Source: Escherichia coli O127:H6 str. E2348/69
GTDB taxonomy: Bacteria > Pseudomonadota > Gammaproteobacteria > Enterobacterales > Enterobacteriaceae
Assembly: GCF_000026545.1 (NCBI RefSeq)
Contig: NC_011601.1
DNA length: 64,000 nucleotides
Strand: one strand, 5' to 3'
Positions 10,501 through 12,820 of this stretch are shown here, one piece after another (the stretch's first letter is position 1; each line of letters opens with the position of its first letter). The position numbers were made by a program.

Positions 10501-12820
10501 AGTTCTCTGGTACTAAATGGGGCATATTGAGGGCAAACTTTGCAACTACGATAACCGCGCATTTAACATGGCTACCTGTTCGTCGTTCATGTCATCAATC
10601 CACATACCGTAAATTTCATACACCATCTGCGCAGTTTCATGCCCCATCTGGCTGGCTATAAATGCCGGGTTCGCTCCTGCCGTCAACAGCCAGCAGGCAA
10701 AAGTATGTCGCGTATGGTACGGATTACGGCGGCGAATACCAGCACGTTTTACTGCTGCATTCCATCTCGCTCCCAAATAGTCGTAGTGAAATCTGATGGG
10801 AAAGCCTTGCTTAGCATGCTGGTGTTGCGCTACCCGTACAGGATGCGGTAACACAGGAAGAAATTAGAACAGAAACTGTGGCGGACATTGTGCATTCGTT
10901 GCCAGGCGGAGAAATAGAACGCTACAACAGGTGCAGAATATAATTTTTCGCAAGTGCCAGAATAGCGATATTATGCAGTGTTTTTTAGTTTTCTATCAGG
11001 GGATATTTTGTGAAACTTTTCGGTGAATAAAATAATTCTCTGTAATAAATGATGAGTATGGTCGGTAGTTATATTTGCGCATGGAAATATTACATTGGAT
11101 ATGAATGTATTTCAAATGAAAGAGCCATAACGCCCGAATGGAGTTAGGGATTCATTACGCATCTAATCTAAAGAATAAGAAAAATACTTAATTCATTGTG
11201 GGTGGTGATGATATCTTGATATGTGAAAATGGTTCTCTTAAAAAGATGTAACTAGCTTATTACTTATCCATAGCACAAGAAATGGTCCTGTATCTGCGTT
11301 GCCATGAAATAAGATAGGCCTAAATGTAATAAAGAGTTGCATGGCAAAATTACTAAAGTTCACAATAAAAAAGAATTAAGTTTTTTGTTTGGGTATTTTT
11401 TTAGTGTATTGTTTTGAAATGTTCTACGCTGCTCTAACCTTCAGTTTGAAGAGGGCTTGAATCGTGATGTCAGTTTGATTGACAGAATTTTATTAATAAT
11501 GTTTACGTTTGAATGTGAAATATGTTTAACTATGCCTTGTTGTTAATCACAGGGACTGACTATGAGAAAAATACTGGTGTATTTATGTATTAGCATATGG
11601 ATTGTTATATCATGCGTGCCTATCATATTAACTAGCGAGTATTTAACAGAGGCGAGTATAATGGCATTGATGTTTGGTCATGCCAATGCACTATGTATTG
11701 GGGTTTTTATTTCTATTATTTATATAGAATGCTGGAGGTAAATAGTGTGAACAGCATTAGTTTGATGATTTTATACTGAACTAAAGGGGGAAAGAGGCAA
11801 CGAAAAAAGACCTCCACCAGGTACGAATCTGAGGCGGGCAGATGGAGGTCGATATCTACACGATTAAATTGATAAGTAAAAGCCCCATCAGGGGTTGATT
11901 TGTTCGAGTCTAATTTAAAGTAATTTCAACGATTTGGCAGAATTTCTTAGAGTTAATGATTTTCAAGTTTTCGATTACCAGGAAAAAGGCTGGGAGCTGA
12001 TAAAATAGTCATCTGCATTCCTTAAATTGTGTAAGGGTGAAAGGATAAAGTTCAATTTAAAGGCGGTACAATATTAGCACCATCTTATATATGTAATGAT
12101 TGATTTGCCTCTTTATTCTACTGTTGAGATTATTGTTTCCGAAAATTGATTATTATCAGCGCGAAAAGAAATGCTACAGCAAATAAGAGGACGATTGTCG
12201 GCGCTGGGGCTCTGTCGAGAAAATATAATAACCATACGCCTGATATTGTTATTGATATCGTTACGGCGATAAGTAATGCCTTATGAAAGCGACGCGTGGT
12301 GAGGACAGCAATAGACCCTGGAGCTGTTAATAGTATATAGACAGAATAATTCCGACTGCTTTTAATGTGGCAAAAATGGTAGGCGATACCATGCAGAGTA
12401 AACTGTAATGTAATAATGATATCTGTAATCCGCTGACTTGTGCCTGTTGATAGTCAAGACAAAAATTCCTGAAAAAACGATACCTATAATGGTATCTTTC
12501 TTTATGATGCTATTATCTTTCAGATAGCCAGTTGCAATTGCACAAGACAGTCCTACAATAAATGCACCAATTCCCAGCGGCATACCTATAATCCAGGCTA
12601 GAACTATGCCAGGAAACATTGCGTGGTTCATTGCATCTCCTATTAGCGCCCAGTCTTTTAATACCAGAAAAACTGATAATAATGCACAGGGAACGATATT
12701 ATAATAGCGATTATCAATGCATAATTCATAAATTTAAATTGTAATGATTAGAGGGTAAAATGTCAGCACATTTGCGAAATGAATCAAAAAGCCCGCAGCA
12801 ATGTGCGGGCGTTAGTGTCA

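What the first reader, a model, noticed from the sequence alone, without database searches (positions are those of the whole stretch)
11562..11741. Unannotated 59-aa two-helix membrane peptide inside the AT-rich island
An ORF just under the 60-aa cutoff with a start codon, a weak Shine-Dalgarno and two predicted hydrophobic helices (MRKILVYLCISIWIVISCVPIILTSEYLTEASIMALMFGHANALCIGVFISIIYIECWR). Small hydrophobic peptides in horizontally acquired AT-rich DNA are sometimes type I toxins or membrane-stress peptides. Nothing else supports it.
Basis: inference. Interest (0 to 1): 0.3.

Follow-up and report, generated by a model that had tools for sequence, protein, structure and literature searches.

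The report
Conserved phage small membrane protein gene

Summary
The window is E. coli E2348/69 (EPEC, a B2-type strain). The ORF at 11562-11741 (+) exists as described. Its length alone is not unusual for this AT-rich DNA, but its hydrophobicity is. A second lineage, about 42% identical in protein, occurs in Qin/DicC-type lambdoid phages. It has the same 59 codons, the same start and stop columns and an aligned Shine-Dalgarno, with dN/dS of about 0.2.

The "island" is a collinear, deleted remnant of such a phage: integrase fragment, LygF/DUF977 fragment, this ORF, then the 3' half of hok. In intact phages the ORF sits 258 nt upstream of the hok start codon. In the window about 273 bp (hok promoter, sok/mok leader, hok codons 1-23) are gone and the rest carries a TGA.

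Among 10 genomes carrying the remnant, the ORF is as invariant as core genes (1.1%, against 5.0% for the surrounding remnant DNA). RefSeq annotates neither lineage. No known family, antisense RNA or RNA structure was found.

Verdict: this is a real, phage-derived two-helix inner-membrane microprotein of unknown function. The type I toxin reading is unsupported for the ORF, but a true type I toxin relic lies beside it. Interest is modest.

The parts
11562..11741 (+). 59-aa ORF (MRKILVYL...IECWR): predicted two-helix inner-membrane hairpin and the only full-length gene left in the remnant
   Evidence: ORF list and translation. Phage-lineage homologue of 59 aa with the same start and stop columns. 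dN/dS about 0.2 and simulation tests. AF2 helices 2-24 and 30-57. Low polymorphism among remnant-carrying genomes.
11551..11555 (+). Shine-Dalgarno-like AGGGA, 6 nt before the ATG; aligns with AGGAGG/AGGGGG in the phage lineage
   Evidence: Sequence; alignment columns about 119-124.
11418..11561 (+). Upstream block homologous to the phage sequence preceding the ORF (about 61% identity over the whole 11418-11778 block); no consensus sigma-70 promoter
   Evidence: blastn blocks; promoter scans of the window and of the phage.
11742..11795 (+). Spacer after the ORF, homologous to the phage up to about 11778, ending at the deletion junction (about 11795-11800, 'AACG' microhomology) where the hok promoter, sok/mok leader and hok codons 1-23 are missing
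   Evidence: Rfam sok RF01794 is present in the phage (L015 4270-4445, 112 bits) and absent from the window.
11796..11894 (+). hok (HokD/HokW-type) pseudogene: 3' half only, reading ..ATKKDLHQVRI*GGQMEVDIYT.. with an in-frame TGA at 11830-11832
   Evidence: 72-75% DNA identity to hok of phages, prophage loci and K-12 hokD. Translation. Pfam HOK_GEF E=0.0065, 16.5 bits, below the cutoff of 22.
10882..11033 (+). Fragment of the phage LygF/DUF977 (PGAP: DUF1627) gene, 3' end
   Evidence: 69-71% identity to L015 2513-2665 and L014 3350-3477. PGAP pseudogene annotation.
10546..10854 (-). Tyrosine integrase C-terminal fragment next to the ttcA 5' end (prophage attL side)
   Evidence: ORF list; PGAP pseudogene annotation.
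12131..12730 (-). Context only: frameshifted metal ABC-transporter permease pseudogene. It lies in the segment absent from K-12 (K-12 homology resumes at 12738) and is not shown to be phage-derived.
   Evidence: PGAP annotation; comparison with K-12.

Best explanation
The ORF is a genuine protein-coding gene of lambdoid-phage origin. It encodes a 59-residue inner-membrane helical hairpin. The inferred topology is N-terminus and C-terminus in the cytoplasm, with a short acidic periplasmic loop.

In intact Qin/DicC-type temperate phages it lies in the early-right (pR) operon, in the order cro/dicC - cII - O - LygF - small genes - this ORF - hok/sok - ydfU - rusA - Q. It has no promoter of its own that I could detect, so it is most likely made from the pR read-through transcript using its own Shine-Dalgarno.

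In the E. coli lineage that includes E2348/69 (UTI89, ST131, Nissle and ATCC 11775 also carry it, strains known from the literature as phylogroup B2), such a phage integrated at ttcA and was then whittled down by deletions. One roughly 273-bp deletion killed the adjacent hok/sok toxin module. The 59-aa gene stayed intact and is as invariant as neighbouring core genes, which suggests, but does not prove, that it is still useful to the host.

Inferred mechanism (not shown): the two helices pack through the invariant S17-C18-x-P20 face of helix 1 and the G39xxxA43xxxG47 / N42 glycine-zipper-like face of helix 2. This would form homo-oligomers or dock onto a host membrane protein, acting as a phage accessory factor (for example superinfection exclusion or modulation of a membrane transporter or sensor) rather than as an RNA-controlled toxin.

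My approximate probabilities for each step: real coding gene in phages 0.8; still functional or expressed in the remnant-carrying lineage 0.45; the specific oligomerising/accessory-factor mechanism 0.2.
For: - **Homology and synteny.** An exhaustive HMMER search found full-length homologues at 38-44% identity (E 1.6e-10 to 3e-6). They lie in the same collinear context, LygF - ORF - hok.
- **Frame conservation.** The start, the stop and the SD occupy the same alignment columns. There is no indel in 180 nt, against 4 indels in the 130 nt upstream.
- **Substitution pattern.** 72 of 180 nt differ, distributed 25/16/31 by codon position. pS is 0.71 against pN 0.33 (Fisher 8e-5), giving dN/dS of about 0.2, and this frame shows the strongest contrast of the six.
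- **Simulation.** Random placement of the same substitutions keeps the start, stop and open frame in only 0.9% of runs, and gives 35 or fewer amino-acid changes in only 1.1%. The hydropathy profiles correlate at 0.78.
- **Intactness.** The ORF is an intact 59 aa in 79 of 79 IMG/VR loci and in 7 of 7 phage or high-quality genome loci. In 73 of those 79 loci hok starts 257-259 nt after the ORF stop.
- **Low polymorphism.** Across 10 remnant-carrying genomes the ORF has 2 variable sites in 180 (1.1%). That compares with ttcA 1.65% and uspF 1.18%, and with 89 in 1783 (5.0%) for the surrounding remnant (Fisher 0.014). In the phage lineage the ORF is the least variable segment, at 3.3% against 7.8-20.5%.
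- **Structure.** AF2 predicts two helices at pLDDT 81. The invariant residues include G39, N42, A43 and G47.
Against: - There are no expression data of any kind. No Ribo-seq or proteomic record was found.
- No sigma-70 consensus promoter lies upstream, and pR is deleted in the remnant.
- All within-lineage polymorphisms are nonsynonymous (2 in the remnant lineage, 6-7 in phages, 0 synonymous). This fits relaxed selection or nucleotide-level conservation better than dN/dS 0.2.
- The integrase pseudogene fragment is also nearly invariant (1.3%), so low polymorphism is not unique to functional genes here.
- The codon-position periodicity alone is weak (chi-square p=0.09).
- The IMG/VR sample was chosen by similarity to the ORF, which biases its apparent conservation upwards.
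- PGAP never calls the gene.
- Only two lineages exist, so the divergence test rests on one deep comparison.
- The proposed function has no direct support. Fold and sequence searches are empty.
Confidence: 0.6

Rival explanations
1. Relic reading: the ORF was a real phage gene, but in E2348/69 and its relatives it is a silent, promoterless leftover. It has simply not yet been hit by a disabling mutation and does nothing for the host.
For: pR and all upstream phage genes are deleted, and no promoter consensus lies upstream. Within-lineage changes are all nonsynonymous. One strain carries an IS1 insertion in the last codons without obvious consequence. The ORF is only 180 nt, a small mutational target. 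The integrase fragment is similarly invariant.
Against: The expected number of variable sites at the remnant's rate is about 9 and only 2 are observed (Poisson 0.006). Every neighbouring phage gene has been truncated, frameshifted or stopped, while this one keeps its full length in 1042 of 1044 genomes at 80% coverage or more.
Confidence: 0.3
2. Type I toxin: the peptide is a membrane-damaging toxin whose translation is held in check by an antisense or nearby small RNA.
For: It is small, very hydrophobic and phage-borne, and sits next to hok/sok in phages. Its glycine-zipper-like helix could form pores. Promoter-like sites exist on the opposite strand inside the ORF (11742->11715 and 11686->11658).
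Against: No toxin-family match and no similarity to Hok. Rfam finds no antitoxin RNA in the window, and the only one in the phage (sok) targets hok and starts 90 nt after the ORF. By my reading of the alignment, the antisense promoter-like hexamers are not conserved in the phage lineage, and such hits are common in this AT-rich DNA (17 found against 8.3 expected). There is no structured or covarying RNA. The ORF has two helices rather than the usual single helix. It survived intact without any partner while hok was inactivated, which is unexpected for an unguarded toxin.
Confidence: 0.07
3. Non-protein element: the conserved thing is the DNA or RNA itself (a regulatory site or RNA associated with hok or the pR operon), and the open frame is incidental.
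For: Synonymous sites are as invariant as nonsynonymous ones within each lineage. ORF nucleotide identity between lineages (about 60%) is no higher than that of the upstream block. The position upstream of hok is fixed.
Against: Between lineages the pattern is that of a protein: pS is far above pN, and the start, stop and SD are kept and the hydropathy profiles correlate. RNAalifold gives a positive (unfavourable) covariation term with many broken pairs, and the MFE z-score is 0.17. No Rfam hit. hok loci work without it in K-12 Qin and mEp460.
Confidence: 0.06
4. Chance ORF in AT-rich junk DNA, with hydrophobicity arising from T-rich composition.
For: ORFs of this length arise in 63% of shuffles of the island. 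PGAP does not call it.
Against: Hydrophobicity is reached in 1% of shuffles or fewer. An orthologous 59-codon frame is kept at about 40% nucleotide divergence, expected in 0.9% of simulations. The ORF is intact in 79 of 79 phage contigs.
Confidence: 0.03

Closest known systems
[quoted passage not shown]
   Same: Both encode a small hydrophobic phage-borne membrane peptide. The ORF is the immediate upstream neighbour of hok/sok in the parent phages (258 nt from ORF stop to hok ATG), and a hok relic lies 55 nt downstream in the window.
   Different: There is no sequence similarity (BLASTP gives no alignment, and there is no PF01848 hit). The ORF has two helices instead of one, no mok-like overlapping frame, no sok-like RNA and no fold-back mRNA structure. 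hok loci occur without it (K-12 Qin, mEp460). It persisted after hok was destroyed.
Small phage-encoded inner-membrane accessory proteins, e.g. superinfection-exclusion factors such as T4 Imm, HK97 gp15 and lambda/Rac SieB (from general knowledge, not tested here)
   Same: These are short, non-essential, membrane-embedded products of temperate or lytic phages. They are often kept in cryptic prophages because they benefit the host. The ORF's location among accessory genes between the replication genes and Q fits this class.
   Different: There is no detectable homology to any of them (PHROGs best E=0.067 to an unknown-function family; BFVD fold search E>1). No functional evidence exists.
Recently recognised small proteins of E. 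coli cryptic prophages (e.g. YnaM in Rac, YnfS/YnfU in Qin, as annotated in K-12)
   Same: They share the size class, the prophage location and the history of being missed by annotation pipelines.
   Different: Those are in K-12 and carry gene names in its RefSeq annotation. This family is absent from the K-12 Qin region and the ttcC-uspF region examined and has no name, no family model and no expression data.
DUF4212 / TIGR03647, the sodium:solute symporter small subunit (two-helix, about 80 aa)
   Same: It is the top weak hit in two libraries, covering residues 5-55, and has the same two-helix architecture.
   Different: E-values of 0.05-0.14 and scores of 13-14 bits are far below the cutoffs (26-30). 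No symporter gene is nearby. The hit is probably compositional.

Membership tests
Type I toxin-antitoxin toxin | Small (under about 60 aa) hydrophobic membrane peptide | tested here: met
   59 aa, GRAVY 1.41, two predicted helices. Most known toxins have a single helix.
Type I toxin-antitoxin toxin | A cis- or trans-encoded antisense RNA antitoxin overlapping or adjacent to the toxin mRNA | tested here: not met
   No Rfam RNA in 10400-15000 except MicC. The phage sok element belongs to hok and starts 90 nt after the ORF. Opposite-strand promoter-like sites are not conserved in the alignment by my reading, and no minus-strand terminator lies near the ORF start. A novel, unstructured antisense RNA cannot be excluded without transcript data.
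Type I toxin-antitoxin toxin | Homology to a known toxin family (Hok, Ldr, TisB, Ibs, ShoB, Zor, DinQ, Fst and others) | tested here: not met
   Pfam, NCBIfam, PHROGs and PADLOC give nothing significant. BLASTP against HokD gives no alignment.
Type I toxin-antitoxin toxin | Growth arrest or killing on expression, relieved by the RNA | not testable with these tools
   Needs an induction experiment.
Hok/Gef (for the neighbouring relic 11796-11894) | Sequence match to the Hok family | tested here: met
   72-75% DNA identity over 95-103 nt to hok of phages, prophage loci and K-12 hokD. Pfam HOK_GEF E=0.0065 on profile positions 20-36 of 42, below the gathering score as expected for a fragment.
Hok/Gef (for the neighbouring relic 11796-11894) | Intact hok ORF with the mok/sok leader and its promoter | tested here: not met
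   Codons 1-23, the promoter and the sok/mok region are deleted, and there is a TGA at 11830-11832. It is a pseudogene.
Lambdoid (Qin/DicC-type) prophage accessory gene | Conserved position and orientation within the phage early-right operon | tested here: met
   The order cI | dicC-cII-O-LygF-...-ORF-hok-...-ydfU-rusA-Q is seen in ON470612 and PV340562 and in E. coli prophages. The window is collinear in three blocks.
Protein-coding gene (generic) | Reading frame, start, stop and SD conserved across diverged homologues, with dN well below dS | tested here: met
   Caveat: there is only one deep comparison, and within-lineage changes are all nonsynonymous.
Protein-coding gene (generic) | Evidence of translation | not testable with these tools
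   No Ribo-seq or MS data were found. The peptide strings are absent from the paper library and from the LF82 Ribo-seq supplements.
DUF4212 / Na+ symporter small subunit | Score above the curated cutoff | tested here: not met
   13 bits against 30 (Pfam) and 13.8 against 26 (NCBIfam).

The most novel reading that the evidence does not exclude
The 59-aa hairpin is a domesticated phage microprotein. It would be the single gene kept under selection from a decayed Qin-like prophage and fixed across the E. coli lineage that includes EPEC E2348/69, UPEC UTI89, ST131 and Nissle. It would act in the inner membrane (for example excluding superinfecting phages, or tuning a host membrane protein or membrane potential through a glycine-zipper oligomer), and would define a new, taxonomically restricted small-protein family missed by RefSeq annotation in roughly half of complete E. 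coli genomes.
Probability: 0.2. Interest if true: 0.55.

Novelty: new member of a known kind. Interest (0 to 1): 0.35.

Why it matters
If the peptide is made, it adds a lineage-wide small membrane protein to the extraintestinal and enteropathogenic E. coli that carry it, where nothing is currently annotated. It also exposes a systematic annotation gap. Neither lineage is called by PGAP in the genomes sampled, although the sequence is present in 1044 + 1567 of 5426 complete genomes. Three phage records instead annotate a shadow ORF on the opposite strand. Finally, the locus is a clean example of differential decay inside a cryptic prophage: the toxin module was destroyed while its neighbour was preserved. 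The gene's function remains unknown, so the practical importance is modest until expression and a phenotype are shown.

Tried and rejected
- **Family and structure searches on the peptide.** Pfam, NCBIfam, PHROGs, PADLOC, the PDB sequence search, and Foldseek against BFVD and PDB gave nothing significant. Generic helical hairpins dominate the fold hits.
- **Word-indexed protein search.** The first search found only near-identical E. coli copies. The homologues appeared only with the exhaustive HMMER search.
- **Frameshifted variant P0013.** I considered it as evidence of decay and rejected it, because its assembly carries single-base deletions throughout.
- **Chimeric P0006 (integrase fused to the ORF) and the extended or truncated variants (P0016, P0017, P0019, P0009-12).** These come from low-coverage contigs, contig ends or IS1 junctions and are not alternative gene forms.
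- **Antisense 83-aa ORF annotated in phage records.** Rejected, because that frame has two stops in the window.
- **Hok-like N-terminus of the ORF.** I suspected an "LTxxxLxE" resemblance, but BLASTP finds no alignment.
- **14-nt repeat at 11175/11562 as a sign of duplication.** About 0.4 such matches are expected by chance (my estimate), and the translation decays immediately.
- **Search for an attR-like ttcA duplicate.** None was found.
- **GTDB genome scan.** It returned only a contaminated "Collinsella" MAG contig and missed the E. coli type strain, so it says nothing about the species range.
- **Literature searches.** Searches for LygF, for Ribo-seq in EPEC or LF82, and for the peptide strings found nothing relevant.
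Full report
**Where we are.** The window matches E. coli E2348/69 (EPEC O127:H6) at 100% identity. The local gene order is:
- dbpA, 8057-9430 (+)
- ttcA, 9559-10494 (-)
- a tyrosine-integrase fragment, 10546-10854 (-)
- a DUF1627/DUF977 fragment
- an unannotated AT-rich stretch, about 10905-12130
- a frameshifted metal ABC-transporter permease pseudogene, 12131-12730 (-)
- uspF, ompN, MicC and ydbK

K-12 carries the Rac prophage at this ttcA site. Homology to K-12 resumes only at window 12738. The segment holding the ORF is present in 1044 of 5426 complete E. coli genomes, including UTI89, ST131, Nissle and ATCC 11775. From general knowledge these are phylogroup B2 strains; I did not test phylogroup assignment. 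RefSeq annotates nothing under the ORF in any listed genome.

**The observation.** The ORF is exactly as described: ATG at 11562, TAA ending at 11741, 59 aa. An AGGGA lies 6 nt upstream of the ATG. Length is not evidence. In dinucleotide shuffles of the island, 63% contain an ORF of 59 aa or more (33% with an ATG start). The hydrophobic character is unusual, though. GRAVY is 1.41 and there are two TM-like windows. Only 1% of shuffles give such an ORF, and only 0.16% of shuffled long ORFs reach GRAVY 1.3. AlphaFold2 predicts helices 2-24 and 30-57 at mean pLDDT 81.

**Homologues.** The word-indexed protein search found only near-identical E. coli copies and assembly artefacts. The exhaustive HMMER search found a second lineage at 38-44% identity (E 1.6e-10 to 3e-6). 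In high-quality sequences it reads MKNALQFLFVAFWLF(A/V)SCMPIIFTARYMEK(V/I)DVLIL(I/M)FG(Y/H)INALFLGVFMAVMCIEYWR. That is also 59 aa, with the same start and stop columns.

The second lineage occurs in 1567 of 5426 E. coli genomes, unannotated in every listed hit. It also occurs in three sequenced temperate phages and in at least 158 IMG/VR contigs. A profile search found no further lineage, and the source-given names in the hit list are all E. coli or Shigella.

**Context in intact phages.** In vB_EcoS-640R1 and PhiR42_1 the gene order is cI | dicC(cro) - cII - O - LygF - small ORFs - this ORF - hok/sok - (rem) - ydfU - rusA - Q. RefSeq prophages show the same order, always with an unannotated gap where the ORF lies. 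In 73 of 79 IMG/VR loci the hok ATG sits 257-259 nt after the ORF stop. In other loci an IS element and the flxA-ydfV-relBE block are inserted between them. Rfam's sok model hits the phage 90 nt after the ORF stop (112 bits). hok loci without the ORF also exist, in K-12 Qin and mEp460, so the ORF is not part of the hok/sok module.

The three phage records annotate an 83-aa ORF on the opposite strand ("hornerin" or "hypothetical"). That frame has two stops in the window, so it is a shadow ORF.

**What the island is.** The window is collinear with the phage in three blocks:
- 10882-11033 is the LygF 3' end (69% identity).
- 11418-11778 is the ORF with 144 nt upstream and 37 nt downstream (61%).
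- 11796-11894 is the 3' half of hok (72%).

About 273 bp of phage sequence are replaced by a junction at about 11795-11800 with "AACG" microhomology. The lost sequence comprises the hok promoter, the sok/mok leader and hok codons 1-23. The surviving hok frame reads ..ATKKDLHQVRI*GGQMEVDIYT.., with a TGA at 11830-11832. It still gives a sub-threshold HOK_GEF match (E=0.0065). No sok RNA is detectable in the window. The "AT-rich island" is therefore a deleted-down Qin/DicC-type prophage at ttcA, in which every recognisable gene except the 59-aa ORF is truncated or broken.

**Is it coding?** Comparing the window with the phage lineage:
- 72 of 180 nt differ, distributed 25/16/31 over codon positions.
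- pS is 0.71 and pN is 0.33 (Fisher 8e-5), so dN/dS is about 0.2. This frame shows the strongest contrast of the six.
- There are no indels inside the ORF, against four in the 130 nt upstream.
- When the same substitutions are placed at random, only 0.9% of replicas keep the start, stop and open frame, and only 1.1% have 35 or fewer amino-acid changes. The hydropathy profiles correlate at 0.78.
- The SD aligns between lineages (AGGGA against AGGAGG/AGGGGG).
- All 79 IMG/VR copies and 7 of 7 phage or high-quality genome copies are intact at 59 aa.
- An RNA-element alternative finds no support. RNAalifold's covariation term is +1.44 with many broken pairs, and the MFE z-score is 0.17.

**Is it still under constraint in the remnant?** Across 10 genomes carrying the remnant (9 haplotypes), the ORF has 2 variable sites in 180 (1.1%). 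That matches ttcA (1.65%) and uspF (1.18%). The surrounding remnants and pseudogenes have 89 variable sites in 1783 (5.0%) (Fisher 0.014, Poisson 0.006). In the phage lineage (50 haplotypes) the ORF is the least variable segment. It shows 3.3% variable sites, against 11.5% upstream, 7.8% downstream, 16.7% in the hok leader and 20.5% in the hok CDS. That sample was chosen by ORF similarity, which biases the comparison.

Several observations count against ongoing protein-level selection:
- Every within-lineage change is nonsynonymous: V6M and S25G in the remnant lineage, and A16V, I31V, M37I, H40Y, V48G, V52G and M53T in phages. None is synonymous.
- The integrase fragment is also nearly invariant (1.3%).
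- One strain tolerates an IS1 insertion at codon 58.
- No consensus promoter precedes the ORF in either the window or the phage, and pR is gone from the remnant.

**Type I toxin?** The ORF matches no toxin family and does not align to Hok. No antitoxin-like RNA was found. By my reading of the alignment, the opposite-strand promoter-like sites are not conserved in the phage lineage. The peptide has two helices rather than one. It stayed intact with no partner while the adjacent real toxin was inactivated. I put this reading at about 7%.

**Most likely mechanism.** What is shown:
- The ORF is a conserved phage gene for a two-helix hydrophobic hairpin.
- It sits in the early-right operon, next to but independent of hok/sok.

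What is inferred:
- Topology is N-in/C-in, from MRK/MK at the N-terminus and the short acidic or mixed loop.
- The helices pack or oligomerise through the invariant S17-C18-x-P20 and G39xxxA43xxxG47/N42 faces.
- The protein acts as a non-essential phage accessory factor in the inner membrane. Superinfection exclusion or modulation of a host membrane protein are the most typical roles for such proteins.
- It persists because it is useful, or at least harmless, to the host.

My probabilities are 0.8 for a real gene in phages, 0.45 for current function in the remnant lineage, and 0.2 for the specific mechanism.

**Comparison with known systems, and novelty.** The ORF belongs to no curated family in Pfam, NCBIfam, PHROGs, PADLOC or the PDB. 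The weak DUF4212/TIGR03647 hits (E 0.05-0.14) are far below the cutoffs. The best description is a new, taxonomically restricted family within a known kind: small phage-encoded membrane proteins retained in cryptic prophages. Some GenBank and JGI pipelines have called it "hypothetical" or "uncharacterized membrane protein". RefSeq did not annotate it in any genome sampled, and no paper in the library mentions it.

**Verdict.** Interest is modest (0.35). The value lies in the annotation gap, the lineage-wide retention and the contrast with the destroyed hok neighbour. Function is unknown and expression is untested.

Noticed in passing
window 11796-11894 (+): Relic of a HokD/HokW-type type I toxin gene. 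Only the 3' half remains, with an in-frame TGA at 11830-11832. Its promoter, the sok antitoxin/mok leader and codons 1-23 were removed by a deletion of about 273 bp with 'AACG' microhomology. It is not annotated in RefSeq.
   Followed up: yes
L015 3907-4158 (-), L014 4907-5158 (-) (phage records ON470612, ON470619, PV340562): The phage GenBank records annotate an 83-aa ORF ('hornerin' or hypothetical) antisense to the conserved 59-aa ORF. That antisense frame has two stops in the window, so it is probably a shadow-ORF misannotation.
   Followed up: yes
E. coli RefSeq genomes: In the genomes sampled, PGAP annotates neither lineage of the 59-aa gene. The sequence is present in 1044 + 1567 of 5426 complete genomes, so this looks like a systematic gap.
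   Followed up: partly
L029 (NZ_CM132302.1), about 1787; equivalent to window ~11735: One bloodstream isolate has an IS1 inserted in the last codons of the ORF. The same junction explains database variant P0009 (...ECWGDAANLLI).
   Followed up: partly
window 10546-10854 (-): The integrase pseudogene fragment is as invariant among remnant-carrying genomes (1.3%) as core genes, unlike the other remnants (about 5%). It abuts the ttcA 5' end and may now carry the ttcA promoter.
   Followed up: no
ORF, both lineages: All within-lineage polymorphisms in the ORF are nonsynonymous (2 in the remnant lineage, 6-7 in phages) and none is synonymous, although the between-lineage dN/dS is about 0.2. This is unexplained; possible causes are the time-dependence of dN/dS, nucleotide-level constraint or small numbers.
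   Followed up: partly
L017 (JAIJJM010000167.1, 'Collinsella sp.' MAG): The only hit of the species-representative genome scan is a 5.5-kb contig binned to Collinsella whose sequence aligns with both the LygF-fragment block and the ORF block of the E. coli lambdoid phages. This is probably MAG contamination. The same scan missed ATCC 11775, which does carry the ORF.
   Followed up: partly
window 12131-12730 (-): A frameshifted metal ABC-transporter (ABC-3 type) permease pseudogene lies in the segment absent from K-12, and is variable (4.7%). Its origin (phage cargo or older chromosomal gene) was not determined.
   Followed up: no
window 11809-11848 (hairpin GACCTCCA...TGGAGGTC): An 8-bp inverted repeat inside the hok relic is preceded by A6. 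Read on the minus strand it looks like an intrinsic terminator (stem followed by T6). The core GACCTC...GAGGTC repeat is native to the hok coding sequence.
   Followed up: no
window 10437-10500: Two adjacent 32-nt units, 72% identical, at the 5' end of ttcA (encoding QENQQITK / [10 protein letters not shown]), next to the prophage junction.
   Followed up: no
window 14751-14871 (+) and 7854-8027 (+): Known small features recovered: the MicC sRNA (Rfam 121 bits) and the annotated proline-rich small protein YnaL.
   Followed up: yes
window 11175-11188 vs 11562-11575: A 14-nt near-repeat (ATAAGAAAAATACT / ATGAGAAAAATACT) matches the first codons of the ORF. About 0.4 such matches are expected by chance in this AT-rich DNA, and the upstream copy runs into a stop after 14 codons.
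   Followed up: yes
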